Shown one piece after another: positions 4,301 to 61,557 of a DNA stretch of 64,000 nucleotides. Every line of letters begins with the position of its first letter. The stretch's first letter is position 1. This stretch comes from Squalus acanthias. Lineage: Eukaryota. The stretch is from NCBI GenBank assembly GCA_030390025.1, contig CM059431.1:112842001-112906000 (forward strand), read 5' to 3'. The translations under genes and the position numbers were made by a program. Under the pieces are notes generated by a model. It was not told where the DNA came from, searched no databases, and saw only the letters and a list, made by a program, of their open reading frames with translations.

Positions 4301-4510
4301 TTTGGAACCCTCTTCCGCAAACGGCAGTTGATGCTAGATCAATTGTTAATCTTAAATCTGAGATTGATAGCTTTCTGTTAACCAAAGGTATTAAGGGATA
4401 TGGGCCAAAGGCGGGTATATGGAGTTAGGTCGCAGATCAGGTATGATCTCATTGAATGGCGGAACAGGCTCAAGGGGCTGAATGGCCTCCTCCTGTTCCT
4501 ATGTTCCTAC
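1338..4510 (+). mobile_element. CR1 LINE, near-complete degenerate ORF2 (APE endonuclease + RT) and 3' UTR
   Basis: APE motifs YTNARSIRNK, ITETWL, VYRPP, GDFD, LDLV..SDHN; RT motifs GVPQGSVLGP, KFADDTK; split by stops and frameshifts; CR1 3' tail ...GGCCTCCTCCTGTTCCTATGTTCCT. Confidence 0.96.
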
Positions 4511-8404: not shown

Positions 8405-8823
8405 AACGCTTGATCGACAACCCATCCATCACCACAAACATCCACTCCCTCCACCACCGTGGCTGCAGTGTGTACTATCTACAGGATGCAGTGCAGCAAC
8501 TTGCCAAGGCTTCTTCGACAGCGCCTCCCAAACCCATGACCCCCACCACCTAGAAGGACAAGGGCAACAGGTGCATGGGAACACCACCACCTTCAGATTC
8601 AAGTCACACAGCTTCCAGACTTGGACATATATCGCTGTTCCTTCATCGTCGCTGGGTCAAAATCCTGGAACCCTGTACCTAATTGCACTATGGGGGCACC
8701 TTCACCACACGGATTGCAGTAGTTCGAGAAGGCCCATCACCACCTTCTCAAGGGCAGCTACTGGTGGGCAATAAATGCTGGCCTTGCCAGACACACGCAC
8801 ATCCTAAGAATGAATAATAAAAA
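8405..8823 (+). mobile_element. 3' fragment of the single-ORF LINE family seen at 32435-35701
   Basis: Collinear with the 3' end of that element; ends GGCAATAAATGCTGGCCTTGCCAG..CACATCC..GAAT + A-rich tail. Confidence 0.9.
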
Positions 8824-15076: not shown

Positions 15077-16006
15077 TTAGGAGGTGTGGATGAGACGGTG
15101 CGGCGGTCTGATGGGCCGGCCGGAGCGGCTCTTGTAGGACTCCGGTGGACGTGGAATGGCCGGGCGTTGAGCAGCCGGGTGAACCGGCTTGAGGGCAGGT
15201 CGGCCGCGTGGCGGTGGACGAGCTACAGGGACCTGCTCACCGGGCTCCGAGTGTGCTGGCTTGAGTCGGTCAACCGACACTTTTTCGGTCCTGTCTCCCA
15301 CTTGCAGGGTGAAAAATTTGTCCCCAGCCTGTAGCACCTTGTAGGGCCCGTCGTACGGGGGTTGAAGGGGTCCGCGGTGGGCGTCGTGCTGGACGAAAAT
15401 GAACCGTGCCTGGTGCAGGCTCAGTGGGACGTGTGAGGTGGATTCGCCGTGTCGGGCAATGGGCACCGGGGCGAACTGCAGCGCCGGTGAGGCGAAGTCG
15501 TGGCGTTGCTGGTCGGCTGACCAGGGTGTCGTGGCGGTGGGCAGGAACTCGCCGGGTACGCGCAGCGGCTGACCGTACACGAGCTCTGCTGCTGATGCGT
15601 GGAGGTCTTCTTTAACCACGGTGCGCAGGCCGAGGAGGACCCACGGAAGTCGGTCGGTCCAGGCGCCGTCCTGGAGGCTGGCTCGAAGAGATGCCTTCAA
15701 GGATCTGTGGAACCGCTCACACAGTCCGTTGGCTGGGGGGTGGTACGCTGTGGTGCGGTGAATGGTCACCCCGAGATTGCGTGCGACGGCGGTCCAGAGT
15801 TCAGAGGTAAATTGCGGACCTCTGTCCGACGTCATGTCGGAGGGGATGCCGAACCGTGCGACCCAGGTGCTGACGAAGGCTCTGGCGATGTCGGCGGTGG
15901 TGGTAGAGGTCAGTGGAATTGCCTCAGGCCAGCGCGTGGTGCGGTCAACGATCGTCAGCAAGTGCGTGTGGCCTTGCGACGGCGGCAGGGGCCCAACGAT
16001 GTCCAC
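15077..16006 (-). CDS. pol: Gypsy integrase (core + GPY/F module), frameshifted relative to RT-RH
   Basis: DIVGPLP, VDRTTRWPEAIP, SDRGPQFTS, YHPPANGLCERFHR, PPYDGPYKV. Confidence 0.93.
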   Translation of the reverse strand: MDIVGPLPPSQGHTHLLTIVDRTTRWPEAIPLTSTTTADIARAFVSTWVARFGIPSDMTSDRGPQFTSELWTAVARNLGVTIHRTTAYHPPANGLCERFHRSLKASLRASLQDGAWTDRLPWVLLGLRTVVKEDLHASAAELVYGQPLRVPGEFLPTATTPWSADQQRHDFASPALQFAPVPIARHGESTSHVPLSLHQARFIFVQHDAHRGPLQPPYDGPYKVLQAGDKFFTLQVGDRTEKVSVDRLKPAHSEPGEQVPVARPPPRGRPALKPVHPAAQRPAIPRPPESYKSRSGRPIRPPHRLIHTS

Positions 16007-17795
16007 GTGGAGGGACAGTAAACTCCTCGAGGGGTGCTTTCGTGTGTTGCTGTACCTTGGCCCGTTGGCAGGCTAGGCAGGAGTTGGCCCAAGTACGCAC
16101 ATCCTTGCGAAGGCCGCGCCAGACAAAGCGGTTGGCTACCAATTTGCTAGATGCGCGGGCACCGGGGTAGGAGAGGTTGTGGAGAATCTCGAATACCCGG
16201 CGGCGCCAGGACGCTGGGACGACGGGCCGAGGTTGACATAGGGATATGTCGCACTTGACCGTGACTGCGGTCGGGCCACAGGCGACGTCGGCCAGGCGTA
16301 GCCCTGGTAGGTTGGTAGGTGCGGAGAGCAGATCAGGGTCGGTGATCTGGTCTGCTGCGAGTTGAGCGTAGTCGACTGCCAGGTGTGCGGCGTGGATGGC
16401 GGGGCGGGAGAGGCTGTCGGCTACCACATTGTCTCGGCCGGAGACGTGTTGGATGTCCGTGGTGAACTCGGACACTGCCGCGAGCTGGCGCTGCTGCCTG
16501 GCGGACCAGGGGTCGGTTGTCTTTGCCATTGCGAATGTCAGGGGCTTGTGGTCGACAAACGCAGTGAAGGGGTGGCCCTCCAGCAAAAAACAAAAATGGC
16601 GGACCGCCAGGAACAGCGCGAGGAGCTCGCGGTCGAAGGTGCTGTACTTGACCTCCGGGGGGCGTAGTTGGCGGCTGAAGAAGGCAAGTGGTTGCCAGGC
16701 GCCGTCGATCCACTGCTCATACACGGCGCCGACCGCGTGGTTGGAGGCGTCCGTGGTGAGCGCTACCCTGGCATTGGGCCGTGGGTGCGCGAGCAGGGTG
16801 GCGTTGGCGAGCGCGGTCTTGGTGGAGTCGAAGGCGGCGGACGCGTCTGCCGTCCATTCGACCGCCATCTTGCCGCTCCTGCCCCGGAGGGCTTCATACA
16901 GGGGCCTCATGAGGGACGCCGCTTTGGGGATGAAGCGGTTGTAGAAATTCACCATCCCGAGGAACTCCTGGAGGCCTTTGATGGTGGTGGGGCGGGGAAA
17001 TTGTTGGACGGCCTGCACCTTGGTGGGCAGGGGAATGGCCCCAGCATGGGTGATGTGGTGGCCGAGGAAGTCGATCTTGTCCAGGCCGAACTGGCATTTG
17101 GCTGGGCTGAGGATGAGCCCATGGTCGCTGAGGCGCCCGAACAGGATGCGAAGGTGTTCAAGGTGTTCCTGCTTGGAGGAACTGGCTATCAGGATGTCGT
17201 CCAGGTAGACGAACAGGAACTTCAGGTCCCAAAGGACCGAGTCCATGAGCCGTTGGAATGCCTGGGCCGCGTTTTTGCGGCCGAAGGGCATCCGCAGGAA
17301 CTCGAACAGGCCGAAGGGGGTGATTACGGCTGTCTTGGGGACGTCCGCGGGGTGGACGGGGACTTGGTGGTAGCCGCGCACCAGGTCGACCTTGGAAAAG
17401 ACTGAGCGGCCGGCCAGTCTAGCCGAGAAGTCCTGAATGTGCGGCACGGGGTACCGATCAGGGGTGGTGGTGTCGTTGAGGCGGCGGTAATCCCCGCAGG
17501 GGCGCCAACCCCCGCCTGGTTTGGGGGCGATGTGGAGTGGGGAGGCCCAGGGACTGTTGGAGCGGCGGATGATGCCGAGCTGTTCCATGGTGGGAAACTC
17601 GGTCCGCGCGATCTCCAGTTTGGCCGGGTCCAGCCTGCGGGCGTGGGCGTACACTGGGGGGCCTGTGGTGGGGATGAAGTGTTCCACCCCGTGTTTGGCG
17701 GCCTCCGCGGAGAAGGTCGGATTGGTAAGGGCCAGGAATTCGGCCAGGAGTGCCGAGTAGTCATCCGTGGCCCGGGCGTGGCACTGTGACGCCAT
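15945..17795 (-). CDS. pol: Gypsy reverse transcriptase, RNase H and integrase zinc finger
   Basis: SPWASPL, DYRRLN, DLVRGYHQ, YLDDIL, TDAS, YSTFDRELLA, DHKPL, NVVADSLSR, CLACQ. Confidence 0.95.
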   Translation of the reverse strand: MASQCHARATDDYSALLAEFLALTNPTFSAEAAKHGVEHFIPTTGPPVYAHARRLDPAKLEIARTEFPTMEQLGIIRRSNSPWASPLHIAPKPGGGWRPCGDYRRLNDTTTPDRYPVPHIQDFSARLAGRSVFSKVDLVRGYHQVPVHPADVPKTAVITPFGLFEFLRMPFGRKNAAQAFQRLMDSVLWDLKFLFVYLDDILIASSSKQEHLEHLRILFGRLSDHGLILSPAKCQFGLDKIDFLGHHITHAGAIPLPTKVQAVQQFPRPTTIKGLQEFLGMVNFYNRFIPKAASLMRPLYEALRGRSGKMAVEWTADASAAFDSTKTALANATLLAHPRPNARVALTTDASNHAVGAVYEQWIDGAWQPLAFFSRQLRPPEVKYSTFDRELLALFLAVRHFCFLLEGHPFTAFVDHKPLTFAMAKTTDPWSARQQRQLAAVSEFTTDIQHVSGRDNVVADSLSRPAIHAAHLAVDYAQLAADQITDPDLLSAPTNLPGLRLADVACGPTAVTVKCDISLCQPRPVVPASWRRRVFEILHNLSYPGARASSKLVANRFVWRGLRKDVRTWANSCLACQRAKVQQHTKAPLEEFTVPPRGHRWAPAAVARPHALADDR

Positions 17796-18870
17796 GTCGG
17801 TGGGTTGACGGGGGGGCCATGGCGCCCAGGATGGGGGACATGGTGTTCATGTCCACGAGGCGGTGTCGAGGGATGTCTACCAGTAGGCCGTGGGCGCACA
17901 GGAAATCTGCGCCGATGAGAGGGGAGAGCACCTTGGCAGTGATGAACTCCCATCGGTAGCGGCGACCAGCGAGGTCGAGGGTGACTGTGCGGGTGCCGTA
18001 CGTTCGGATTTCCGAGCCGTTAGCAGCAGCCAGCGCCGGTCCTCGTTCGCCCTTTTGGATGTCGAGGGAGGAGGCCAGGATGATGCTGTGCTGAGCTCCA
18101 GTGTCGCACAGGAACCGGCGGCCGGTTTTGTCATCCGTGACGTACAGCAGGGAGCCCGCATGGCCCACGGCCATCGCGGGGGCTGGTACGGGGGCGGACT
18201 TGAAAGAGCAGGGAGGTGTGCACCGTTGTGCCCTGGCGCCGAACCGTGCGTGGTAGTAACAGTGGCCCGGGTTAGTGGGGCGCGAAGGCCTCATGGGCCT
18301 GGTGGTTGGGCCTTGTGGCCGCGTGGTGGCCGGTGAGGGGCGCGCCCAGGCGTTGGCTGCCAGGTCCGGAGTGATGTCGCGGCTGGAGTGAGCGGACAGC
18401 AGCTTGTCGGCCTCATCGGCCAGGGCTTCCAGGTTCGTGAGGCCGGACGCCACGATCGCCGGGCAGATGCTGAGAGGTAGCTGGCGGATGAACAGCGTGC
18501 GGAAGAGGGATCCGGGTGGGCTCTCGTCGGTGAGGGAGAGCATGTGGGAGAGGAGGTCTGACGGTGAGGCATCACCGAGGCCTGGAAGGTCGAGGAGGTG
18601 GCAGTTTCGCTGGTATGCCGAGGCCGTAAATTTTTTAAGGAGCGCTGCCTTAAGATGTGCATACTTGCCTTCCTCTGGTGGGTTCTGCAGCGCTGTCCAG
18701 ACCTTTGTAACTGTGAAGCTACCGAGTGATGTGACGAGGTAGTCGTACTGCGTCCCATCTGTGGTGATGTGTTGCAGCCGGAAGCGGGATTCGGCTTGGA
18801 GAAACCAGGCTTCGGGCTGGTTTTCCCAAAACTCCGGCAGTTTCACGGAAACTGCGTTTGTGTCCGCCAT
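17761..18870 (-). CDS. gag: Gypsy Gag and aspartic protease
   Basis: VKLPEFW..PEAWFLQAE N-terminus, CYYHARFG..A.RC..PC zinc knuckle, FLCDTGA protease site, LIGADFL. Confidence 0.92.
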   Translation of the reverse strand: MADTNAVSVKLPEFWENQPEAWFLQAESRFRLQHITTDGTQYDYLVTSLGSFTVTKVWTALQNPPEEGKYAHLKAALLKKFTASAYQRNCHLLDLPGLGDASPSDLLSHMLSLTDESPPGSLFRTLFIRQLPLSICPAIVASGLTNLEALADEADKLLSAHSSRDITPDLAANAWARPSPATTRPQGPTTRPMRPSRPTNPGHCYYHARFGARAQRCTPPCSFKSAPVPAPAMAVGHAGSLLYVTDDKTGRRFLCDTGAQHSIILASSLDIQKGERGPALAAANGSEIRTYGTRTVTLDLAGRRYRWEFITAKVLSPLIGADFLCAHGLLVDIPRHRLVDMNTMSPILGAMAPPSTHRHGVTVPRPGHG

Positions 18871-18895
18871 TGCAGTGGTCGGAATACGTTCTGAG

Positions 18896-18909
18896 CGTCG
18901 GGGTCACCA
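18896..18909 (-). promoter_or_regulatory. Primer-binding site complementary to tRNA-Trp 3' end
   Basis: TGGTGACCCCGACG, 1 nt inside the 5' LTR; vertebrate tRNA-Trp ends CGTCGGGGTCA-CCA. Confidence 0.88.
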
Positions 18910-20999: not shown

Positions 21000-22000
21000 T
21001 CCTTGTCTTCCTCTGGCAGTCTTGTGAAGAATGCCCCAGGTCCTCTTTCTCTTCTTCCTCAACATGGTGTTGCCCCATTGTAGGTTTCCGTGGTGGTGAT
21101 GGATCAGCCGGAGCAGATGGCCAAAGGTAGGAAGGAGTGAAGCTAAAGAGGGTGGAAGGTTGTGTGTGTGTGTCAGGATAAGGCTGTCAGTTAAGGAATT
21201 GTGCTGATGGAAGTGAAGTGAGAGATGTGGGGGAATGAGGATGTTTGAGATGGTGTCTTGGGGTGGTGCAAGGCAGTTGCTGTGTATTAGCGGAGTTGTA
21301 GGTACCCTCTACCAGAGTGTAGTGTGATGGGTTAGTCATGTGAGTGTTGCGTTAAGAGGGTGAAGACTGGGTGGTGGTGCCCAGAGTGAACAGAGAGGAA
21401 AGGGGACAGTGTGGTGACCTGCTACCCTTGACTGCCCTCATGAAGTGTTTTAACTTCTTTCTGTACTGTTGAGCAGTTCTAAGCATGAGCGAGTTGGGAG
21501 TCAGTGCAAGTGTTAGCACCTTGCAGGCAACACAAATGAAGTTGATGTCCAGCTTGGTGAAAGAGAACCCAGGAATGTTTGGCTCCTGTCTTGTACCTCT
21601 TAGAGGAAGCTTGGAGGTCTTCATCAGAGAAGCCACTGTTGCTCCTCTTGGCTGCTGCCATGGTGTGGTGCCCAGTGGGCACAGCTGGTACCTAAGTGGA
21701 CATGATAGTTCCAATCTGGACTGATGCTGTGGTTGAGAGATGCTGTCAGGTGATTTGTCGGCTGCCTACCTTGCTGTCAGACAGTGTTCTGCTGCTGCTA
21801 GGCATCTATCGAGTGCTTTTAAAGAGTTAAATCATTGTTGCATGCAAATTTCCTGGGGTGGGGGCTGCAGCAACTTGCACAGTTTCTACACTCAGGTTAC
21901 ACCAAAGCTGCACCAAAAGTATTTAAATGAATCTACCCCAGGAAACTTGTGTCTCCGGCAAGCGGATATGAGAATTCCGGCCTCTGAACATTAGGTTGAC
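21000..22000 (-). mobile_element. Harbinger Myb/SANT gene remnant
   Basis: MAAAKRSNSGFSDEDLQA and RTAQQYRKKLKHFMRAVK fragments; boundaries approximate. Confidence 0.55.
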
Positions 22001-23927
22001 ATTCAGTGGTAACTTGCGTCCAATGGGAGTGGAGTGGTGACACCCCATTCCCATCTAATTGGTCCTCCTGATTCAGGCTAATGACCCGTCCATGTGAAAA
22101 AAAAAAGGGGGTCTTTGTTATGGAAAAACCCAAGAGCACCAGCTGCTGGATGGAAAGCAGTGGAAGAAACGGGTCACCATTGGGGGCACCTGATTAGTAT
22201 GGGTCAGGCGAGCACAAGTGCCACTTTCAGCACATCTCTGGCATTCACCTGTCACATGCCCACAGAAACTCTGGCGTCGCTCTGCCCGTGCCGGGGGGAT
22301 TGCCGACTCCGGCCATTATTTCTTCAGCCCCAGGAGCAAACCTCTACGCAAACACCATGTCACAGCTGTGGATTAGGAGCAGGAACCCCCTGCTTAGGGA
22401 ATCCCCAGCTCCCCTCTCCTGTGGCCCTGCTCCCTGCCCATCATTTGCTTTGTAAGGGATGGACAGAAATTCTGCTCATTTGAAGCCACGGGGGAAACTT
22501 CCTGAAACGGCCAGAGACCAGACATAAACAGGTCTCCACTGATTGCTTGGGGGTTCTATCGGTCTCCTGCCAGAGTTACAGCAGGAAATGGGTGAATTCA
22601 TTGAGGAATTTTAGGGCCATAGCGTGTATGTTTTGTTTTGCTGGTTTTGGAGCAGGTTGGGTGTAATCTAGGTCGCCTGACCATTGGAGATGCACTGGGG
22701 ATTCGCTTGCAAAAAATTTAAACAATATGTGATGTGGGCCTAAGCAGTAAGAAATTTGAGGTATCCTACCATCAAATTAAAGTCCCAAAGCCCACAGAAA
22801 TACAATGTTTATGTCATTAAATTGTATTTTTTGCTTTAAAGCAATTGAATGGTAAATCTTAAAATTGCTGCTACACACAAGGCACTGAATAAATAACTCT
22901 TTTTTGTGATGCTGCAGTAATGCATTTGCACAGTGAGAAGCCCTGCCTGTTATAACTAATGATTTTTGTTTGACTGAAGTGATTGGTAAATAATGCTGTT
23001 CTGTAGATAACAGAAAATTATTAAAACCGTGTACTTTATTCACAGCTTTCCTGCTTTATGCCTATGATATTAAGTTAATTCCTATAGTCATCTTATACTG
23101 CATATATACCATATGAAATAAGCCAAAGCCAATCAGAAGTGTCAAATGTGGTCTACTGACTTACTCCAAATGGCAGATGTATAATAATAATTTCCCGCAG
23201 TAGAAAATTGAGCACTCTAAGCTCAAAACCATTGACCTGACAACTGTCAGTCAGTAGAATATAAAGTGCACTCTCCATTTGAAAGCATCATAAATCATTT
23301 CCTCATTCGCTGTTAACCAGCAATCATGATCTTAATCAGACTGACTATTGTTTGGAATTATAAACATTCATTTTTATCTTTGTTTATATCTAGGACTGAG
23401 AAAACTTACAGTTAGAAATTTTTTCTACCAACTGTTTAATTAAATTATAAGTGCTTTATTGAACAATGGTGCATCACACCATATGTGATATTCGCAAACA
23501 AGTATATTGAGGATATTACACGGTTCTGTACAGGGTAAATTCATTGATCCCGTGCTCCTAGTGGGGAACTGCTCTCAAAGGGAATGCAAGTGTCCAAACA
23601 ACACTGCCTTTGATCATGACTTTTCACTGGGACATGGGATTAGTAGATTACCTTTACATTTGGGTAACATTATGCACTGAGCATTGACAAGGCTGTCATT
23701 TATTTGCAGGAGACTGAACTAAAGCTGGGAGATTGGGACGCATTTATTAGGAACTCTTATTTACAAGTTTTGGGTAGCAGATGAACTCTAGAAGTCTCTT
23801 GATGTATGGTGGAGTGCTGAGCCTCATTGTTGATCAGTTGCTCCCAGCTATCTTCAGTTCTGATAAGGGATGATAAAAGAAGGGCAAGGGAAGCCTATGG
23901 GAATTTGAGTGGAGTAGGTCTGAAGAA

Positions 23928-32111: not shown

Positions 32112-32434
32112 TATGATTCTATTCTCAGTGAAAAATTACAGAATGCAGAAAAAGGGGCAGAATCCAAAATTAAGGAAATATAGAATTCCATGCTGGCAAA
32201 GAGCTTGCTTACCGGCTGTGTTAAATAACTATAACATTTGTTCAGAGTTTTCCATTCGATGTCTCCCAACAAAAAAACTTAAGGAGAAAAGTTATTAATG
32301 GCATTTCTGTAATGACTAACAATTGATGTGGAATTGAACCAGGACTATATGTTGGTTGTGACGTAATGGGAAAATATGAGCAAACTAGTCTACATTTATA
32401 AACGATAGTGTACGATCTATTTAAAAAAAAAATG

Positions 32435-35400
32435 TTTTATTCGTTTATGGGATGTGGGCGTCGCTGGCAAGTCCTGCATTTATTGGCCATCCCTAATTGC
32501 TCTTGAGAAGGTGGTGGTGAGCTGCCTTCTTGAACCGCTGCAGTCCGTGCGGTGAAGTTACTCCCACAGTACTGTTACGGAGTGAGTTCCAGGATTTTGA
32601 CCCAGCGACGATGAAGGATCGGCGATATACCTCCAAGTCAGGATGGTGTGTGACTTGGAGCGGAACTTGGAGATGGTGGTGTTCCCATGCGCCTGCTGCC
32701 CTTGTCCTTCTAGGTGGTAGAGGTCACGGGTTTGGAGATGCTTCCGAAGAAGCCTTGGAGAGTTGCTGCAGTGCATCTTGTAGATGGTACACACTGCAGC
32801 CACAGTACGCCGGTGGTGGAGGGAGTGAATGTTTAAGGTGGTGGATGGGGTGCCAATCAAGTGGGCTGCTTTGTCTTGGATGGTGTCGAGCTTCTTGAGT
32901 GTTGTTGGAGCTGCACTCATCCAGGCAAGTGGAGAGTATTCCATCACACTCCTTACTTGTGCCTTGTAGATGGTGGAAAGGCTTTGGGGAGTCAGAAGGT
33001 GTGACACTCGCCACAGAATACCCAGCCTCTGACCTGCTCTTGTTGCCACAGTATTTATGTGGCTGGTCCAGTTAAGTTTCTGGTCAATGGTGACCCCTCA
33101 GGATGTTGATGATGGTGGATTCGGCTATTGTAATGCCATTGAATGTCAAGGGGCATTGGCTAGACTCTCGCTTGTTGGAGACACTCATTGCCTGGCACTT
33201 CTGTGGCACGAATGTTACTTGCAACTTATCAGCCCAAGCCTGAATGTCATCCAGGTCTTGCTGCATGCGGGCATGGACTGCTTCATTATCTGAGCAGTTG
33301 CGAATGGTGCTGAACACTGTGCAGTCATCAGCAAACATCCCCACTTCTGACCTTATAATGGAGGGAAGGTCATTGATGAAGCAGCTGAAGATGGTTGGGC
33401 CTAGGGCACTGCCCTGAGGAACTCCTGCAGCGATGTCCTGGGGCTATGATGATTGACCTCCAACAACCACAACCATCTTCCTTTGTGCTAGGTATGACTC
33501 CAGCCAGTGGAGAGTTTTTCCCCTGATTCCCATTGACTTCAGTTTTACTTGGGCTCCTTGGTGCCACACTTGGTCAAATGTTGCCTTGATGTCAAGGGCA
33601 GTCACTCTCACCTCACCTCTGGAATTCAGCTCTTTTGTCCATGTTTGGACCAAGGCTGTAATGAGGTCTGGAGCCGAGTGGTCCTGCCGGAACCCAAACT
33701 GAGCAGCGGTGAGCAGGCTATTGGTGAGTAAGTGCCGCTTGATAGCACTGTTGACAACACCTTCTATCACATTGCTGATGATTGAGAGTAGACTGATGGG
33801 GTGGTAATTGCCGGATTGGATTTGTCCTGCTTTTTGTGGACAGGACATACATGGGCAGTTTTCCACATTGTCGGATAGATGCCAGTATTGTAGCTGTACT
33901 GGAACAGCTTGGCTAGAGGCGCGGCTAGTTCTGGAGCACAAGTCTTCAGCACAACAGCTGGGATGTTGTCGGGGCCAATAGCCTTTGCTGTATCCACAGC
34001 GCTCAGCCATTTCTTGACATCACGTGGAGTGAATCGAATTGGCTGAAGACTGGCTTCTGTGATGGTGGGGACCTCAGGAGGAGGCCGATATGGATCATCC
34101 ACTCGGCACTTCAGCCTTGTCTTTTGCGCTCACGTGTTGGGCTCCGCCATCATTGAGGATGGGAATATTCATGGAGCCTCTTCCTCCCGTTAGTTGTTTA
34201 ATGGTCCACCACCATTCACGACTGGATGTGGCACGACTGCAGTGCTTTGATCTGATCCGTTGATTGTGCGATCGCTTAGCTCTGTCTATAGCATGCTGCT
34301 TCTGCTGTTTAGCATGCATGTGGTCCTGTGTTGCAGCTTCCCCAGGTTGGTACCTCATTTTTATGTACACCTGATGCTGCTCCTGGTATGCTCTTCTACA
34401 CTCCTCATTGAACCGGGGTTGGTCCCCTGGCTTGATGATAATGATAGAGTGAGGGATATGCCAAGACATGAGGTTACAGATTGTGGTGGAATACAATTTT
34501 GCTGCTGCTGATGGCCCACAGCGCCTCATGGATGCCCAGTTTTGAGCTGCTAGATCTGTTCTGAATCTATCCCATTTAGCACGGTGGTAGTGCCACACAA
34601 CACGATGGCGAGTATCCTCAGTGTGAAGATGGGACTTCGTCTCCACAATGGCTGTGCGGTGGTCACTGCTACCAATGCTGTCATGGACAGATGCATCTGC
34701 GATAGGTAGATTGGTGAGGACGAGGTCAAGTAGGTTTTTCCCTCGTGTTGGTTCTCTCACCACCTGCCGCAGGCCCAATCTGACAGCTGTGTTCTTCAGG
34801 ACTCGGCCAGTAGTGGTACTACCGAGCCACTCTTGGTGATGGACATTGAAGTCCCCCATCCAGAGTACATTCTGTGCCCTTGCTACTCTCACTGCTTCTT
34901 CCAAGTGGTGGTCAACATGGAGGAGTACTGATTCATCAGCTGAAGGAGGGCGGTAGGTGGTAATCAGCAGGAGGTTTCCTTGCCCATGCTTGACCTGAAG
35001 CCATCAGACTTCTGGGGTCCAGAGTCAATGTTGAGGACTCCCAGGGCCACTCCGTCCCAACTGTGTACTACTGTGCCACCACCTCTGGTTCATGTATCCT
35101 GTCGGTGGGTCAGGACATACCCAGGGATGGTAATGGAGGAGTCTGGGACATTGGCTGAAAGGTATGATTCTGTGAGTATGACTATGTCAGGTTGTTGCTT
35201 GACTAGTCTGTGGGACAGCTCTCCCAATTTTGGCACAAGTCCCCAGATATTCGTGAAGAGGACTTTGCAGGGTCGACTGGGCTGGGTGTGCCGTTGTCAT
35301 GTCCGTAGCCAGTGCCGAGGTCGATGCCGGGTGGTCCGTCCAGTTTTATTCTTATTATTGTTTTTCATAGTGGTTTGTACAACTGAGTGGCTTGCTAGGC

Positions 35401-35701
35401 CATTTCAGAGGGCAGTTAAGAGTCAACCACATTGCTGAGGGTCTGGAGTCACATAGGCCAGACCAGGTAAGGACAGCAGATTTCCTTCCCTAAAGGACAT
35501 TAGTGATCCAGATGGAGTTTTACGACAATCTGATAGTTTCATGGTCAGCGTTACTAATACTAGCTTTTTATTCCAGATTTATTGAATTAACTGAATTTAA
35601 ATTCCCCAGCTGCCGTGGTGGGATTTGAATTCACATCTCGGGATCATTAGTCCAGGCCTCTGGATTACTAGTCCAGTAACATAACCACTATGCTACTGTT
35701 C
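32435..35701 (-). mobile_element. Full-length single-ORF non-LTR retrotransposon (CR1/L2-group APE-RT) with tRNA-derived 5' end
   Basis: Degenerate ORF from ATG 35368 to TAG 32493: NIWGL..PDIVILTES, YRPP, GDFNVH, LDLVLTN..SDH, GPDNIP, QFGFR, DIKATFD.VWH, GVPQGS.LGP, FADD; ~330-nt 5' UTR starting with a tRNA-like head; ~55-nt 3' UTR and A-rich end. Confidence 0.93.
35612..35701 (-). promoter_or_regulatory. tRNA-derived head with Pol III type 2 promoter boxes
   Basis: A box TAGCATAGTGG (35695-35685); anticodon arm CTGGA-CTAGTAA-TCCAG (35676-35660, AGT/Thr-like); B-box-like GAATTCAAATCC (35632-35621, one mismatch to GTTCRANNC). Confidence 0.8.
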
Positions 35702-38164: not shown

Positions 38165-39499
38165 AATCCTCCTCGGATTTGGAGGTGGTTCCAGAGGACT
38201 GGAGGATTGCAAGTGTTACAACCCTTATTAAAAACGGGAGGGGGATAAACTCAGCAACTACAGGCCAGTCAGCCTCACGTCAGTGGTGGGGAAACTTTTA
38301 GAGACAATAATCCGGGACAAAATGAATTGTCATTTGGAAATGTATGGACTAATAAATGAAAGTCAGCGTGGATTTGTTAAAGGCAAATCGTCTTTGACTA
38401 ACTTGATCGAGTTCTTTGATGAAGTAACGGAGAGGGTTGGTGAGGGTAATGCGGTTGACATTGTGTATATGCACTTTCAAAAGGCATTTGACAAAGTACC
38501 ACATAATAGACATTTTAGCAAAATTAAAGCCCATGGGATTAAAGGGATAGTGGCAGCATGGATACAAAATTGACTAAGGGACAGAAAGCAGAGAATTGTG
38601 GTGTACGGTTGTTTTTCAGACTGGAGGGAAGTGTGCAGTGGAATTCCACAGGGGTTGGTATTAGGACCACTGCTCTTTTTGATATATATTAATGACCTGG
38701 ACTTGGGTATACAGGGCATAATTTCAAAGTTTGCAGATGATACGAAACTTGGAAATGTAGTAAACAATGAAAAGGATAGTAACAGACTTTAGGAGGACAT
38801 AGACAGGCTAATAAAATGGGCAGACATGTGGCAGATGAAATTTAACGCAGAGAAGTGCGAGGTGATACATTTTGGTAGGAAAAATGAAGAGAGGTAATAT
38901 AAACTAAATAGTACAATTTTAAAGGGGTTCCAGGAACAGAGAAACCTGAGGGTGTATGCACGCAAATCTTTGAAGATGGCAGGACAAGTTGAGACGGCTG
39001 TTAATAAAGCATATGGGATCCTTGGCTTTATTAATCGAGGAATAGAGTACAAAAGCAAGAAAGTTAGCTAAACCTTTATAAAACACAGTTTAGGCCTCAG
39101 CTAGTGTATTGTGTTCAATTCTGGGCACCACACTTTAGGGAGGATGTCAAGGCCTTAAAGGGGGTGCAGAAGAGATTTACGAGAATGGTACCAGTTATGT
39201 GGAGCGACTGGAGAAGCTGGGTTGTTCTCCTTGGAGCGGGGAAGGTTAAGAGGAGATTTGATGGAGGTGTTCAAAATCATGAATGGTTTTCATAGAGTAA
39301 CTAAGGAGAAACTGTTTCCAGTGGCAGAAGGGTGGGTAACCAGAGGACACAGATTTAAGGTGATTGGCAAATGAACCAGAGGCGACATGAGGAAACAATT
39401 TTTTACACACCGGGTTGTTGTGATCTGGAATGCACTGCCTGAAAGGGTTGGGGAAGCAGATTCAATCGTAACATTCAAAAGAGAATTGGATGAATACTC
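38165..39499 (+). mobile_element. Older degenerate CR1 (RT to 3' end); its tail resumes at ~41191-41325
   Basis: RT motifs with many stops; 3' end split by the younger CR1; (GATTCTAT)n tail at ~41310-41325. Confidence 0.92.
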
Positions 39500-41190
39500 T
39501 TGAAGGAAGTGGCGGTAGGGATTGTAGATGCATTGGTAATAATTTTTCAAAACTCCCTGGATTCCGCTAAGGTCCCGGCAGACTGGAAAACTGCTAATGT
39601 AACACCCTTATTTAAAAAGGGCAGTAGACAGAAGGCTGGTAACTATAGACCGGTTAGCCTAACATCTGTGGTAGGTAAAATTTTGGAGTCCATTATTAAG
39701 GAAACAGTAACAGGACATTTGGATAATCATAATTTAATAGGACAAAGTCAGCATGGTTTTACGAAGGGGAAGTCATGTTTGACAAATTTGCTGGAGTTCT
39801 TTGAGGAAGTAACATATAGAGTGGATAAAGGGGAACCAGTGGACGTAGTGTATTTAGACTTCCAAAAGGCATTTGACAAGGTGCCACACAAAAGATTATT
39901 GCTTAAGGTAAAAAATCACGGGATTGGGGGTAATATTCTGGCATGGATAGAGGATTGGCTATCTAACAGAAAGCAAAGAGTTGGGATAAATGGTTCATTC
40001 TCAGACTGGCAATCAGTAACTAGTGGTGTTCCACAGGGGTCAGTGCTGGGTCCCCAACTCTTCACAATCTATATTAACGATTTGGAGGAAGGGACCAAGT
40101 GTAACATATCAAAATTTGCAGATGATACAAAGATGGGAGGGAAAGTAGTGAGTGAGGAGGACATAAAAAACCTGCAAGGGGACATAGACAGGCTAAGTAA
40201 GTGGGCAGAGATTTGGCAGATGGAGTACAACACTGGAAAGTGTGAGGTGATGCACTTTGGCAGGAAAAATCCTAGAGCAATTTATTATCTTAATGGCAAG
40301 AAACTGGAGAGTACTGAAGTGCAAAGGGATCTGGGGGTCCTGGTGCACGAAACTCAAAAGGTTAGTAAGCAGGTGCAGCAAGTGATTAAGAAGGCAAATG
40401 GAATGTTGGCTTTCATTGCTAGGGGGATAGAATATAAAAATAGGGAGGTATTGCTTCAGTTGTACAAGGTATTGGTGAGACCGCACCTGGAATACTGCAT
40501 ACAGTTTTGGTGTCCTTACTTAAGGAAAGACATCCTTGCTCTCGAGGCAGTGCAAAAAAGGTTCACTCGGTTAATCCCGGGGATGAGGGGGTGGTCATAT
40601 GAGGAGAGGTTGGGTAGATTGGGACTCTACTCATTGGAGTTCAGAAGAATGAGAGGCGATCTTATTGAAACATATAAGATTGTGAAGGGGTTGGATCGGG
40701 TGGATGCGGGGAGGATGTTCCCGATGACGGGTGAGACGAGAACTAGGGGACATAGTCTTAGAATAAGGGGCTGCTCTTTCAAAACTGAGATGAGGAGGAA
40801 CTACTTCACTCAGAGGGTGGTAGGTCCATGGAATATGCTGCCACAAAAAGCTGTAGAAGCTACAACATTAATTAAATTTAAAACAGAAATAGACAGTTTC
40901 CTAGAAGTAAAGGGCATTAAGGGTTACGGGGAGCGGGCAGGAATTTGGACATGAGTCTAGGTTCGGTTCGGTCATGGCCCTGTGGGTAGTGGAGCGGGCC
41001 CAGGGACTGTGTAGCCTGATTCTGCTCCTATTTCGTGTGTGCAATTCTGTTAGATGCAGGAGATGGTTCTGTGATAGATAGTAGATTGGCGGTTAGGATC
41101 AGATCAGCCATGATCTTATTGAATGGCGGAGCAGGCTCGAGGGGCCGATTGGCCTACTCCTGCTCCTATTTCTTATGTTCTTATGTTCTT
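39500..41190 (+). mobile_element. Young 5'-truncated CR1 with uninterrupted 484-codon RT frame (39500-40954)
   Basis: Open ORF with all RT motifs (NYRPVSL, QHGF, YLDFQKAFD, GVPQGSVLGP, FADD); (TTCTTATG)n tail. Confidence 0.96.
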
Positions 41191-45949: not shown

Positions 45950-46185
45950 CTTTTTTAAAATTCATTCACGGGATGTGGGCGTCGTTGGCAAGGCCAGCAT
46001 TTATTGCCCACCCCTAAATGCCCTTGAGAAGGTGGTGGTGAGCCGCCTTCTTGAACCGCTGCAGTCCGTGTGCTGAAGGTACTCCCACAGTGCTGTTAGG
46101 GAGGGAGTTCCAGGATTTTGACCCAGCGACGATGAAGGAATGGCGATATATTTCCAAGTCAGGATGGTGTGTGAGTTGGAGGGGA
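45950..46185 (-). mobile_element. 3' fragment of the tRNA-headed LINE family
   Basis: Collinear with 32435-32660. Confidence 0.9.
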
Positions 46186-53607: not shown

Positions 53608-54244
53608 TGATCACCATTGACCAGAAACTTAACTGTGGCAACAAGAGCAGGTCAGAGGCTAGGTATTCTGTGGCAAGTGTCTCACCTCCTGACTCCCCAA
53701 AGCCTTTCTACCATCTACAAGGTACAAGTAAGGAGTGTGATGGAATATTCTCCACTTGCCTGGATGAGTGCAGCTCCAACAACACTCAAGAAGCTCGACA
53801 CCATCCAGGACAAAGCAGCCCACTTGATTGGCACCCCATCCACCACCTTAAACATTCACTCCCTCCACCACCGGCGTACCATGGCTGCAGTGTGTACCAT
53901 CTACAAGATGCACTGCAGCAACTTGTCAAGGCTTCTTCGGCAGCACCTCCCAAACCCGCGACCTAGAGGACAAGGGCAGCAGGCGCATGGGAACACCACC
54001 ACCTCCAAGTTCCCCCCCAAGTCACACACCATCCTGACTTAGAAGTATATCGCCGATCCTTCATCGTCGCTGGGTCAAAATCCTGGAACCCCCTCCCTAA
54101 CAGCACTGTGGGAGTACCATCACCACACGGACTGCAGCGGTTCAAGAAGGCAGCTCACCACCACCTTCTCAAGGGCAACTAGGGATGGGCAATAAATGCT
54201 GGCCTTGCCAGCGACGCCCACATCCCATAAACGAATAAAAAAAA
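53608..54244 (+). mobile_element. 3' fragment of the tRNA-headed LINE family
   Basis: RAGQRLGIL..VRSVMEYSPLAWMSAAP; highly similar to 32435-33095; A tail. Confidence 0.95.
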
Positions 54245-59844: not shown

Positions 59845-60010
59845 TCCATGAAACCTACCTCTTGCTCCCTTGACTTCATTCCCACTAAACAGCTGACCAC
59901 CCAACTTCCCTTCCTTACCCCCATGTTAGCTAACATTGTAAATGCTTCACTATCCTTGGGTAATGACCTTTATCTTTCAAAACCACTATCACCTCCATCC
60001 TCATAAAATG
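59845..60010 (+). mobile_element. L2 ORF2 fragment
   Basis: MKPTSCSLDFIPTK.LTTQLPFL.PMLANIVNASLS. Confidence 0.8.
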
Positions 60011-60067
60011 CCTCTGCTAACCACCTCCAGGAGCTGCACTGCAATTCCAAAGACTATTGCCGGCTTC

Positions 60068-61345
60068 CGATCGCTGCCCCCCTCCCTCTCCCGATCGCTG
60101 CCCCCCTCCCTCTCCCGATCGCTGCCCCCCTCCCTCTCCCGATCGCTGCCCCCCTCCCTCTCCCGATCGCTGCCCCCCTCCCTCTCCCGATCGCTGCCCC
60201 CCTCCCTCTCCCGATCGCTGCCCCCCTCCCCCCCCTCCCTCTCCCGATCGCTGCCCCCCTCCCTCTCCCGATCGCTGCCCCCCCCCCCCCCTCTCCCGAT
60301 CGCTGCCCCCCCCTCCCTCTCCCGATCGCTGCCCCCTCCCTCTCCCGATCGCTGCCCCCTCCCTCTCCCGATCGCTGCCCCCTCCCTCTCCCGATCGCTG
60401 CCCCCCTCCCTCTCCCGATCGCTGCCCCCCTCCCTCTCCCGATCGCTGCCCCCTCCCTCTCCCGATCGCTGCCCCCCTCCCTCTCCCGATCGCTGCCCCC
60501 CTCCCTCTCCCGATCGCTGCCCCCCTCCCTCTCCCGATCGCTGCCCCCTCCCTCTCCCGATCGCTGCCCCCTCCCTCTCCCGATCGCTGCCCCCTCCCTC
60601 TCCCGATCGCTGCCCCCCTCCCTCTCCCGATCGCTGCCCCCCTCCCTCTCCCGATCGCTGCCCCCCTCCCTCTCCCGATCGCTGCCCCCCTCCCTCTCCC
60701 GATCGCTGCCCCTCTCCCGATCGCTGCCCCCCTCCCTCTCCCGATCGCTGCCCCCCTCCCTCTCCCGATCGCTGCCCCCTCCCTCTCCCGATCGCTGCCC
60801 CCTCCCTCTCCCGATCGCTTCCCTCTCCCGATCGCTGCCCCCCTCCCTCTCCCGATCGCTGCCCCCCTCCCTCTCCCGATCGCTGCCCCCCTCCCCCACC
60901 CGATCGCTGCCCCCTCCCTCTCCCGATCGCTGCCCCCTCCCTCTCCCGATCGCTGCCCCCTCCCCCCACCCGATCGCTGCCCCCTCCCTCTCCCGATCGC
61001 TCTCCCTCTCCCGATCGCTGCCCCCATTCCCCCTCCCGATCGCTGCCCCCTCCCCCTCCCGATCGCTGCCCCCTCCCCCTCCCGATCGCTGCCCCCCTCC
61101 CCCTCCCCGATCGCTGCCCCCTCCCTCTCCCGATCGCTGCCCCCTCCCTCTCCCGAATGCTGCCCCCTCCCCCACCCGATCGCTGCCCCCTCCCTGTCCC
61201 GATCGCTTCCCCCTCCCGATCGCTGCCCCCTCCCGATCGCTGCCCCCTCCCCCCTCCCGATCGCTGCCCCCACCCCCCACCCGATCGCTGCCCCCTCCCC
61301 CCTCCCGATCGCTGCCCCCTCCCCCCACCCAATCGCTGCCCCCTT
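60068..61345. repeat. GC-rich minisatellite, 23-24-bp unit CCGATCGCTGCCCCC(C)TCCCTCTC, roughly 50-55 copies
   Basis: Direct inspection; homogeneous on the left, more degenerate on the right. Confidence 0.98.
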
Positions 61346-61557
61346 TCCTGTACCAATCACTTTCCCCCTACCAGTCATGCTCACCTCTCTCGGTCAGCCC
61401 CCCCTCACCTGTTGCTTCTCCCCCCACCCCCTCCCAGGACCTACCTGAAGGCCATTGCCCAATTTCTAGGCCATCATATTAATTTGTGAACTGAAATCAT
61501 TAACAACACTCACCTACAATAATCCCATGCAGCGGTGCATTCTACACTCTGGCTAAC

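What the first reader, a model, noticed from the sequence alone, without database searches (positions are those of the whole stretch)
32435..35701. Candidate Pol III-transcribed autonomous LINE: tRNA head, single ORF and no TTTT in 3.26 kb
Seen: the element begins with a tRNA-like head (A box, 5-bp anticodon arm with 7-nt loop, B-box-like motif). It runs without an A-tail or TSD junction into one APE-RT ORF (ATG 35368, stop 32493), with no ORF1. Scanning by eye I found zero TTTT runs and only about 7 TTT on the sense strand, against about 16 AAAA runs; at roughly 22% T, several TTTT and some 30 TTT would be expected. The three partial copies (8405, 45950, 53608) also lack internal sense TTTT, while the CR1s in this window have many. 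Known: vertebrate Pol III terminates at four or more Ts, and LINEs are normally regarded as Pol II transcripts. Inference: the whole protein-coding element has been selected to be readable by Pol III from an internal tRNA-type promoter. I do not know of a description of this, but could not search the literature.
Basis: partly seen in the sequence, partly recalled or inferred. Interest (0 to 1): 0.88.

Follow-up and report, generated by a model that had tools for sequence, protein, structure and literature searches.

The report
LINE retrotransposon with SINE-type tRNA head
This is a decayed copy of an abundant shark-type LINE whose every full-length copy starts with a SINE-style tRNA-like promoter head and has no internal T-runs, so it may be the first protein-coding retrotransposon transcribed by RNA polymerase III and the parent of a known kind of SINE.

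Summary
Window 35701-32435 (minus strand) is a full-length but dead copy of a very abundant non-LTR retrotransposon family. Its sense strand has 0 TTTT, 7 TTT and 17 AAAA runs.

The tRNA-like head is not a chance neighbour. All 40 scored genomic matches and 17 fetched full-length copies begin at the same base, with unrelated upstream DNA, and run straight into the APE-RT frame.

The family's column majority holds one open 971-codon frame and no T4. T3 runs are about 2.5-fold rarer than synonymous shuffles predict, whereas 15 other retroelement ORF pieces show no depletion. T4 absence alone is only marginal under the element's own codon usage.

- The genome holds SINEs made of head plus body joined directly to the LINE tail, with many different deletion junctions.
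- Many copies, including this one, carry a T4-T10 run at the exact 3' end.

Pol III transcription is plausible, at about 0.5, but untested. No description was found in print.

The parts
35604..35701 (-). tRNA-like head, the 5' terminus of the element. It is shared base for base with the SINE form.
   Evidence: Copies start here with unrelated upstream flanks. ARAGORN calls tRNA-Ile(aat) in the same region of 1 of 30 other loci.
35685..35695 (-). A-box match TAGCATAGTGG (the TRGCNNAGTGG consensus is recalled)
   Evidence: Kept as TAGC[A/G]TAGTGG in most aligned copies.
35660..35676 (-). Anticodon-arm-like hairpin 1, CTGGA-CTAGTAA-TCCAG
35637..35656 (-). Second, duplicated anticodon-arm-like segment (family: CCTGGACTAATGATCCAG). 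ARAGORN used this arm for its one call.
35621..35632 (-). B-box-like motif GAATTCAAATCC (family: GAGTTCAAATCC), about 52 nt after the A box
35378..35603 (-). Non-coding body or 5' UTR, also shared with the SINE form up to ...AGCAAGCCACTCAGTT(GT). From recall it resembles the Deu domain; this was not tested. It holds 8 ATGs and 2 AATAAA.
32493..35377 (-). Decayed APE-RT reading frame. The family majority is one open 971-codon frame. In this copy it is broken by stops and frameshifts. The TAG stop is at 32495-32493.
35366..35368 (-). It is in the APE frame but private to this copy (the family has ACG), and a stop follows after about 20 codons.
34653..34859 (-). C-terminal part of the apurinic-type endonuclease domain (Pfam Exo_endo_phos_2)
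33084..33825 (-). Reverse-transcriptase domain (Pfam RVT_1), split over two frame pieces in this copy
32433..32492 (-). 3' UTR or tail shared with the SINE form. AATAAA lies at 32484-32479 and 32441-32436.
32423..32432 (-). T10 run on the sense strand, directly after ...GAATAAAACA.
   Evidence: 17 of 17 further fetched 3'-end loci (two of them a duplicate pair) end GAATAAAAC[A/T] plus T8-T14 before unrelated flanks. L065 and L031 have T9.
8409..8817 (+). 5'-truncated copy, 80% identical, matching element positions 2900-3324 of the probe
45960..46185 (-). 5'-truncated copy, 90% identical
53632..54240 (+). 5'-truncated copy, 93% identical

Best explanation
The region is a dead, full-length copy of a highly repeated non-LTR retrotransposon, about 3.3 kb long. 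It has one frame of about 971 codons encoding an apurinic-type endonuclease and a reverse transcriptase, and no ORF1.

The family's true 5' end is a SINE-type unit: a tRNA-derived head with A and B boxes, followed by a non-coding body of about 230 nt. Its 3' tail is the tail of SINEs in the same genome. Those SINEs are head plus body joined directly to the tail, so they are internal-deletion derivatives of this LINE.

Proposed mechanism (inferred, not shown):
1. TFIIIC and Pol III start at the first base of the head, as in the SINE.
2. Pol III reads through the whole T4-free 3.2 kb.
3. It stops at the T4-T10 run that many copies carry at their 3' end, or at the first T-run in the flank.
4. The uncapped RNA is translated by non-AUG or unconventional initiation.
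5. The RNA is copied into DNA by its own protein through the shared tail.

The structural part (headed LINE, SINE derivatives) I hold at about 0.95. The confidence given here is for the whole statement including Pol III transcription.
For: Shown:
1. The head is the family's 5' end.
- 40 of 40 scored matches start at query base 1-39 (1 is the window's own copy; the 39 others start at 6-39) and 38 of 40 run on to query base 466-471, the other two to 462-463.
- 29 of 29 loci start at probe position 46-79, and most continue colinearly into the LINE.
- 17 full-length copies have unrelated upstream flanks and the same first bases.
- Of 20 copies chosen by an APE-region protein match, 1 is full length and 19 are truncated at scattered points. 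None extends upstream of the head.
2. SINE forms exist.
- 272 exact hits link the body to the tail within 1-30 nt, against 0 in the reversed control. There are at least eight junction classes.
- 6 of 8 fetched SINE copies show the same head and the same 5' start.
- The same kind of joints appears in contigs of other public runs.
3. T-runs are depleted.
- 18 copies hold 0-2 T4 each, nearly all at different places (one place recurs in two copies), and never a T5.
- The column majority of 14 copies has T>=3 seven times and T>=4 zero times. The other bases show runs of >=3 and >=4 as A 44/17, C 51/11, G 37/9.
- T3 observed/expected under synonymous shuffles is 0.42 in this family and 0.97 in 15 control retroelement ORF pieces. 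Control T4 is 2.17 per kb; in this family it is 0.
- With the codon usage of the window's other LINEs, 5.6 T4 are expected in the ORF (P<0.002).
4. A terminator-like run sits at the exact 3' end.
- This copy has T10, and 17 of 17 further fetched loci have T8-T14.
- About 10 of 100 unselected tails have T4-T6 just before the A-run.
- 5 of 17 copies selected for long ORFs do, including the two longest frames.
- 2 of 8 SINE copies end in T8-T9.
5. There is no ORF1, and no in-frame AUG before the endonuclease domain.

From papers:
- Pol III-made transcripts retrotranspose without ORF1p in a human cell assay (PMC2666806, abstract).
- R2 LINEs are made from rRNA transcription and self-cleaved at the 5' end (PMC5786205, Discussion).
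Against: - No transcript data exist. No RNA run is on record for this sequence, so the polymerase is untested.
- T4 absence is only marginal once the element's own codon usage is granted. P is 0.11-0.25 in the ORF and about 0.04 for the whole element.
- The strongly significant signal is T3 depletion, and a T3 run is not a canonical vertebrate Pol III terminator (recalled knowledge).
- Most tails (about 90 of 100) have no T4. In those copies Pol III would have to end in the flank.
- The long-T subfamily of this window copy is rare, 0-1 of 100.
- A specialist paper states that Pol III processivity is weak and that autonomous elements must use Pol II (PMC10886601, section 4.2 passage). Natural Pol III transcripts of 3 kb are not known to me.
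- An uncapped RNA with 8 upstream AUGs would need unusual translation.
- The head is not a convincing tRNA by ARAGORN, Rfam or folding.
- No intact full-length copy was found among the 57 copies I fetched. The longest natural frame, 874 aa, lies in a 5'-truncated copy.
Confidence: 0.5

Rival explanations
1. This is an ordinary Pol II LINE with a SINE-derived leader. The head and body are simply its 5' UTR, perhaps carrying an internal Pol II promoter. Only the short deletion derivatives are made by Pol III. T-run avoidance would then reflect another pressure on a long unspliced A-rich RNA, such as avoiding U-rich elements that favour premature polyadenylation or cryptic splicing.
For: - The standard view is that LINEs use Pol II (PMC5786205 Discussion; PMC10886601 passage).
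- The A-run tail, with AATAAA about 45 nt upstream, fits ordinary cleavage and polyadenylation.
- T4 absence is compatible with the element's own codon usage at P about 0.11-0.14.
- The significant depletion is of T3, which Pol III does not require.
Against: - LINE and SINE copies begin at the same base. A Pol II start site would have to coincide with the Pol III one.
- The 5' UTR holds two AATAAA and eight AUGs, and the frame has no AUG. These are poor features for a capped scanning mRNA.
- Two related LINEs (about 30% amino-acid identity) and an LTR element in the same genome show no T-run depletion.
- T4-T10 runs at the exact 3' end have no role in this model.
Confidence: 0.33
2. The tRNA-like head is an RNA-processing signal. 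The LINE would be co-transcribed with host genes, and RNase P or RNase Z would cut at the tRNA-like structure to define the 5' end, as HDV-like ribozymes do for R2 and some RTE elements.
For: - 5' self-processing is known for six LINE clades (PMC5786205 Discussion).
- The 5' end is sharply defined in all copies.
Against: - The head has no acceptor stem and does not fold as a cloverleaf. The minimum-energy fold is not tRNA-like and z is -1.37.
- ARAGORN finds a tRNA in 1 of 31 sources, and Rfam finds none.
- RNase Z would sever the head from the body, yet the head is retained in every full-length copy.
- This model does not explain the T-run depletion or the 3' T-run.
Confidence: 0.05
3. A SINE happened to insert just upstream of a LINE in this locus, and the lack of TTTT is sampling noise.
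For: This copy alone cannot exclude it. The codon-aware P for T4 absence alone is weak.
Against: - The same junction is found in every full-length copy examined, at unrelated loci.
- There is no SINE tail between body and ORF.
- T4 is absent from the family majority and from all nine natural long ORFs examined.
Confidence: 0.01

Closest known systems
DeuSINE family SacSINE1 / LmeSINE1 of sharks, chimaeras and the coelacanth (tRNA head, Deu domain, tail homologous to the L2-2_CM LINE; PMC5499810 sections 7 and 12; PMC4824008 passages)
   Same: - A tRNA-type head with A and B boxes, a conserved non-coding body, and a tail shared with a LINE.
- The SINE form found here is about 415 nt, within the copy lengths reported for sharks.
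- From recall, the body and tail resemble this family.
   Different: - Here the same head and body are followed by a 971-codon APE-RT frame before the tail.
- The papers note only tail homology between SINE and LINE.
- I had no Repbase or Dfam sequence, so the identity with SacSINE1 or the Deu domain is untested.
L2/CR1-group LINEs with partner SINEs that share the 3' tail
   Same: - APE plus RT (Pfam Exo_endo_phos_2, RVT_1).
- Heavy 5' truncation, a fixed 3' end and no target-site duplications.
- About 30% amino-acid identity to other LINEs of this group in the window.
   Different: - The 5' end is a Pol III-type head.
- There is no ORF1 and no AUG.
- T-runs are depleted on the sense strand.
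- The 3' end is a short A-run, often preceded by T4-T10.
Bipartite non-autonomous LINEs as the source of SINE bodies (Kojima 2018, PMC5786205)
   Same: SINE bodies that are the 5' part of a LINE joined to its 3' part by internal deletion. This is what searches show.
   Different: - That survey found such 5' contributions only for the RTE and Vingi clades, and pictured the small-RNA head being added later to a Pol II-made deletion derivative.
- Here the autonomous parent already carries the head.
R2 elements (made from Pol I rRNA transcripts, 5' end cut by an HDV-like ribozyme)
   Same: A single-ORF LINE that does not rely on its own Pol II promoter. From recall, R2 also produces an uncapped RNA and uses unconventional initiation.
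   Different: R2 is site-specific and uses a ribozyme. This family is dispersed and would use an internal Pol III promoter.
Mammalian T+ SINEs such as B2 (AATAAA, Pol III terminator, A-tail; PMC12101331 abstract)
   Same: The order AATAAA, then a T-run, then an A-run at the 3' end, seen in a fraction of copies.
   Different: Those are short non-coding SINEs mobilised by L1. Here most copies lack a T4 in the tail.
TRIMp3 elements (Cassandra, Helenus, Ajax; PMC10886601)
   Same: A retrotransposon that carries a small-RNA-derived Pol III promoter.
   Different: Those are non-coding LTR elements, and their autonomous partners are assumed to use Pol II.

Membership tests
Non-LTR retrotransposon (APE-type LINE) | Apurinic-type endonuclease followed by reverse transcriptase in one frame | tested here: met
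   Pfam Exo_endo_phos_2 (6.5e-09) and RVT_1 (1.8e-13). The column majority has one 971-codon frame.
Non-LTR retrotransposon (APE-type LINE) | Many copies share the 3' end and are truncated at variable 5' points | tested here: met
   19 of 20 copies are truncated at probe positions 126-866, and 16 of 20 end at 3317-3326.
Non-LTR retrotransposon (APE-type LINE) | Target-site duplications flank full-length copies | tested here: not met
   The mean best flank match is 4.61 nt, against 4.84 for mismatched loci. From recall, absence of duplications is common in CR1/L2-type LINEs.
Autonomous (currently coding) element | At least one full-length copy with an intact frame | tested here: inconclusive
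   No intact full-length copy among 57 fetched copies. The best natural frames are 874 and 815 aa, both in 5'-truncated copies. Only a tiny part of the family was examined.
L2 clade | RT phylogeny with reference L2 elements | not testable with these tools
   No reference LINE library is on hand. The best database relatives are unnamed at 43% identity, and the atlas gives only generic names.
L2 clade | 3' tail shared with the L2-partner SINE (SacSINE1 / L2-2_CM) | tested here: inconclusive
   The tail is shared with the SINE of this genome. That this SINE is SacSINE1 rests on recall and on the description in PMC5499810.
tRNA-derived SINE head (type 2 Pol III promoter) | A box near the 5' end and B box 30-60 nt downstream | tested here: met
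   TAGCATAGTGG starts 7 nt from the start. GAGTTCAAATCC lies about 52 nt after it and differs at one position from the recalled consensus.
tRNA-derived SINE head (type 2 Pol III promoter) | Recognisable tRNA cloverleaf or tRNA model match | tested here: not met
   ARAGORN calls a tRNA in 1 of 31 sources, Rfam in 0, and the fold is not a cloverleaf. This is common for old SINE heads.
Pol III transcription unit | No T>=4 between start and end on the sense strand | tested here: met
   0 in this copy, 0 in the family majority, and 0-2 (nearly all at different places) per copy in 18 copies.
Pol III transcription unit | T-run terminator at the 3' end | tested here: inconclusive
   T10 here and T8-T14 in 17 further fetched loci of the same subfamily. 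T4-T6 in about 10 of 100 unselected tails and 5 of 17 long-ORF copies. Most tails have none.
Pol III transcription unit | Transcription by Pol III (inhibitor profile, ChIP, 5'-triphosphate) | not testable with these tools
   No RNA run is on record. The contigs laid cannot show starts, ends or strand.
DeuSINE superfamily | Sequence similarity of the body to the Deu domain | not testable with these tools
   No Deu reference sequence could be obtained. The supplements of PMC5499810 are not held, Nishihara 2006 is not held, and a motif search in papers found 0.

The most novel reading that the evidence does not exclude
[quoted passage not shown] It would have been kept free of terminators over 3.2 kb, ended by its own T-run, and translated without a cap or an AUG.

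It would also be the parent from which Deu-type SINEs repeatedly arise by internal deletion. In that case the long-unexplained conserved SINE 'body' would simply be the LINE's 5' UTR.
Probability: 0.45. Interest if true: 0.92.

Novelty: new variant of a known kind. Interest (0 to 1): 0.8.

Why it matters
- **The polymerase rule.** Textbook and specialist accounts hold that LINEs are Pol II transcripts, that SINEs cannot encode a protein, and that Pol III is too poorly processive for autonomous elements (PMC5786205 Discussion; PMC10886601 passage). A LINE whose own 5' end is a SINE head contradicts at least the structural half of that picture.
- **SINE origins.** The architecture gives a simple, testable route for how SINEs are born: by deletion inside a Pol III-headed LINE, rather than by adding a head to a LINE fragment.
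- **The conserved SINE body.** If the body is the Deu domain, as I recall but could not test, that would explain the origin of a conserved element. Copies of it have become enhancers and exons in vertebrates (PMC4824008 passages), and its function has been called unknown.
- **A natural test case.** If Pol III does make the full-length RNA, this would be a natural case of a long, translated Pol III transcript. It would also fit the reported rule that Pol III transcripts need no ORF1 protein (PMC2666806 abstract).

Tried and rejected
- **Target-site duplications.** I looked for them to prove that head and LINE move as one unit. None was detectable, so the argument rests on shared boundaries instead.
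- **RNA evidence.** No RNA holder is listed for this stretch. I laid four runs kept as contigs. They are short contigs of uncertain kind. They show only that depth falls to background outside about 32421-35700, that depth is higher over the head/body and tail than over the ORF, and that deletion joints link about 35377-35416 to 32500-32726. They say nothing about expression, starts or strand.
- **tRNA detectors and folding.** ARAGORN, Rfam and folding of the head are largely negative.
- **Clade assignment.** The homologue search gave unnamed relatives at 43% identity or less, plus one shark gene model that contains the element. The atlas gave generic names.
- **Deu-domain identity.** Supplements and the key paper are not held, and a motif search in papers found 0.
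- **Earlier notes of this scan.** There is nothing on this genome or sequence, and two unrelated SINE notes elsewhere.
- **Literature.** Searches for a tRNA-headed or Pol III-transcribed LINE found no such description. Subscription journals, Repbase and Dfam were not searchable.
- **Programmed frameshift.** I considered a -1 frameshift from the overlapping upstream ORF, but saw no slippery site by eye and did not pursue it.
- **Genome allowance.** After that only short stretches were fetched, so older subfamilies and more control LINE families could not be sampled.
Full report
**1. What is at the coordinates**

On the minus strand, window 35701-32435 is 3267 nt (A 28.8, C 27.6, G 22.8, T 20.8%). 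It has no run of four or more T, seven runs of three T, and 17 runs of four or more A.

The first 98 nt form the head:
- An A-box match, TAGCATAGTGG (35695-35685).
- A 5-bp/7-nt hairpin, CTGGA-CTAGTAA-TCCAG (35676-35660).
- A second, duplicated copy of that arm (35656-35637).
- A B-box-like GAATTCAAATCC (35632-35621).

Pfam finds the end of an apurinic-type endonuclease domain and a reverse transcriptase downstream.

The frame is not intact in this copy. The longest ATG-ORF is 254 aa, and the stop-to-stop pieces are 302, 191 and 179 aa.

**2. The head belongs to the LINE**

The window lies in a 3.71-Gb assembly.
- A 471-nt probe spanning head, leader and the first 118 nt of the frame gave 9697 first-look candidates. 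All 40 scored matches begin at probe base 1-39 (1 is the window's own copy; the 39 others begin at 6-39). Thirty-eight of the 40 run on to probe base 466-471, the other two to 462-463, at 90-93% identity apart from the window's own copy.
- In 29 of 29 fetched loci the match starts within about 15 nt of the head start. In most it continues colinearly for as far as the locus reaches.
- I then fetched 20 loci whole. Counting L038 as well, 17 copies span from head to tail, 13 of them as one uninterrupted alignment.
- Their upstream flanks are unrelated. They start (G)GGAACGGTAGC..., and there is no SINE tail, A-run or break between the body and the coding frame.
- As a sample not chosen on the head, I took the 20 copies with the longest open frames from a protein search with an APE-region piece (115,943 first-look candidates). 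One is full length and starts at the head. The other 19 are truncated at scattered points (probe positions 126-866). None extends upstream of the head or carries another 5' end.

No target-site duplications are detectable, so the unit is defined by shared boundaries only. Chance juxtaposition is excluded.

**3. The family frame**

- Fourteen full-length copies differ by 3.3-6.3% (mean 4.3%) from their column majority.
- That majority, which I did not print, has one open frame of 971 codons from position 328 to 3240 of about 3300.
- The endonuclease motif ...LLTNIWGLVPKLGEL lies 48 codons into the frame. The first in-frame Met is at codon 284, so there is no usable AUG.
- The nearby ATG in AAGAATGAAAC is present in 9 of 21 copies and is out of frame. 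The spacing is 116 nt in 17 of 21.
- The ATG at 35368 is in frame but private to this copy. The family has ACG there, so it looks like CpG decay.
- The leader holds eight ATGs and two AATAAA.
- There is no room for an ORF1. An upstream ORF of about 82 codons overlaps the start of the main frame in another frame (read by eye, not followed up).
- No intact full-length copy was seen among the 57 copies fetched. The best natural frames are 874 and 815 aa, both in 5'-truncated copies.

**4. T-runs**

- In 18 copies, T>=4 occurs 0-2 times per copy, nearly always at different places (one place recurs in two copies), and never as T5. A>=4 occurs 6-18 times (13-18 in the 16 copies without a large internal deletion).
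- The family majority has T>=3 seven times and T>=4 zero times. Runs of >=3 and >=4 for the other bases are A 44/17, C 51/11 and G 37/9. Only T is depleted.
- On two natural long frames (874 and 815 codons), T3 is observed 4 times. Shuffles predict 15.7 (mononucleotide), 9.3 (dinucleotide, P=0.016), 11.3 (synonymous-codon, P<=0.002) and 11.2 (codon-order).
- T4 is observed 0 times, against 3.1, 1.3, 1.7 and 1.9 for the same shuffles (P 0.02-0.25).
- So T4 absence alone is not significant once the element's own codon usage is granted. That usage is itself T-run-averse: Phe TTT/TTC is 3/16 and Phe is 2.2% of residues.
- If the same protein is written with the codon usage of the window's other LINEs, 5.6 T4 are expected (P<0.002). 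With the usage of the gypsy element, 1.6 are expected (P=0.15).
- Adding the 327-nt leader (T 26%, about 1.15 expected, 0 seen) gives roughly 3.2 expected for the whole element under the most conservative model.
- Controls were 15 ORF pieces (12.9 kb) of other retroelements in the window and in the flanks of fetched loci. They include two LINEs about 30% identical in RT. They have T3 at 10.6 per kb (observed/synonymous 0.97) and T4 at 2.17 per kb (0.77).
- Nine natural frames of this family have T3 at 1.9 per kb (0.42) and no T4.

The depletion is thus real, strand- and base-specific, and peculiar to this family. Its strongest component is T3, not T4.

**5. The 3' end**

- The shared sequence ends ...CCCAT[G/A]AACGAAT, followed in most copies by an A-run of about 6-10.
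- That is not random flank. In a tail search, 17 of 40 scored hits (the window's own copy among them) included the extension. The 17 fetched loci (two of them a duplicate pair) all read GAATAAAAC[A/T] plus T8-T14, often followed by AA(A/T), and then unrelated DNA. The ranking favoured the query, so this is not a frequency.
- In an unselected listing of 100 of 8624 exact tail matches (control 0), that long-T form is 0-1 of 100. About 10 of 100 have T4-T6 directly before the A-run (GAATTTTAAAAAA), by my count from the listing.
- Among the 17 long-ORF copies with a recognisable tail, 5 have T4-T9 there, including the two longest frames.

**6. SINE derivatives**

- A pattern linking the end of the body to the start of the tail within 1-30 nt has 272 exact hits, against 0 in the reversed control.
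- By my reading of the 100 listed, there are at least eight junction classes. Some retain extra LINE 5' sequence (…GTTGTATCAAACCGCTAC…) and others extra LINE 3' sequence (…CACCACCACCTTCTCAAGGGC…).
- Of eight fetched copies, six show the whole head and the same 5' start as the LINE, and are about 415 nt long. Two end in T8-T9.
- Contigs of four public runs show the same kind of joints, and higher depth over the head/body and tail than over the frame. This is presence only.
- These SINEs are therefore internal-deletion derivatives of the headed LINE, formed many times.

**7. Comparison with what is known**

- Sharks, chimaeras and the coelacanth have DeuSINEs (SacSINE1, LmeSINE1) built of a tRNA head, a Deu domain and a tail homologous to the L2-2_CM LINE. 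Only the tail homology to the LINE is noted (PMC5499810, sections 7 and 12 read).
- The vertebrate Deu domain is given as about 330 bp, with function unknown (PMC4824008, passages).
- From memory, the body and tail here look like that family. I could not obtain a reference sequence to test this.
- Kojima's survey of Repbase found LINE 5' parts in SINE bodies only for the RTE and Vingi clades. It states that LINEs are made by Pol II and that SINEs cannot encode a protein (PMC5786205, abstract and Discussion).
- A later paper says autonomous partners must use Pol II because Pol III is poorly processive (PMC10886601, passage).
- Pol III-made transcripts retrotranspose without ORF1p in human cells (PMC2666806, abstract).
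- Six full-text searches found no description of an autonomous LINE with a tRNA-type head. Repbase, Dfam and subscription journals could not be searched.

**8. Verdict**

The structure is secure: a LINE whose native 5' end is a SINE head and body, which spawns SINEs by deletion. As far as I could search, it is undescribed.

That Pol III makes the full-length RNA is the best-fitting mechanism. It explains several features together:
- The shared first base of LINE and SINE copies.
- The T-run avoidance peculiar to this family.
- The T-runs at the exact 3' end.
- The lack of ORF1 and of an AUG.

It remains untested and faces real objections: processivity, translation of an uncapped RNA, tails that mostly lack a T4, and a T4 statistic that is weak under the element's own codon usage. 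I put it at about one half, with an ordinary Pol II LINE carrying a SINE-derived leader at about one third.

Noticed in passing
window 15080-18903 (-): An LTR retrotransposon of the Ty3/gypsy type with long open pieces. Pfam finds RVT_1, RNase H, integrase zinc-binding and core domains, and DUF7041 in the gag-like part. I used it only as a composition control.
   Followed up: partly
window 1379-4840 (+) and 39494-40951 (+): Two other LINEs, with APE and RT pieces, about 30% identical in RT to the studied family. Their T-run content is normal. Their clade was not determined.
   Followed up: partly
window 59942-61489: All six reading frames are open for 437-515 codons. This suggests a long low-complexity or tandem-repeat stretch.
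   Followed up: no
window 35366-35368 and the matching place in other copies: The family has an in-frame ACG, with G at -3, where this copy has ATG. It is the only near-cognate start candidate I noticed between the upstream stop and the endonuclease domain.
   Followed up: partly
Element positions about 272-510 (window about 35430-35190, -): An upstream ORF of about 82 codons starts at ATGTGGTTGACTC and overlaps the beginning of the main frame. The main frame lies at -1 relative to it. In one copy (L062) an indel fuses the two.
   Followed up: partly
Run X19 laid at window 35378 (table 7): 439 contigs continue from ...TCAAACCGCTAC on the sense strand into a long A-run instead of the coding frame. 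This hints at a head-plus-body form with a poly(A) tail in another data set.
   Followed up: no
L071 and L072 (G000 C432:55991-56091 and 21942-22042): Two tail loci on one small contig are identical over all 101 nt, flank included. This indicates a segmental duplication or an assembly duplicate.
   Followed up: no
Protein P0033: A database gene model named as an aldo-keto reductase of another shark matches this LINE at 71% identity over 30% of the query. That model probably includes a LINE fragment, and the family evidently occurs in a distant shark lineage.
   Followed up: no
L011, L018, L021/L070, L027, L019/L060: Five of 29 head-bearing loci carry large internal deletions at different places. 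Deletion derivatives of many sizes therefore exist besides the SINE-sized ones.
   Followed up: partly
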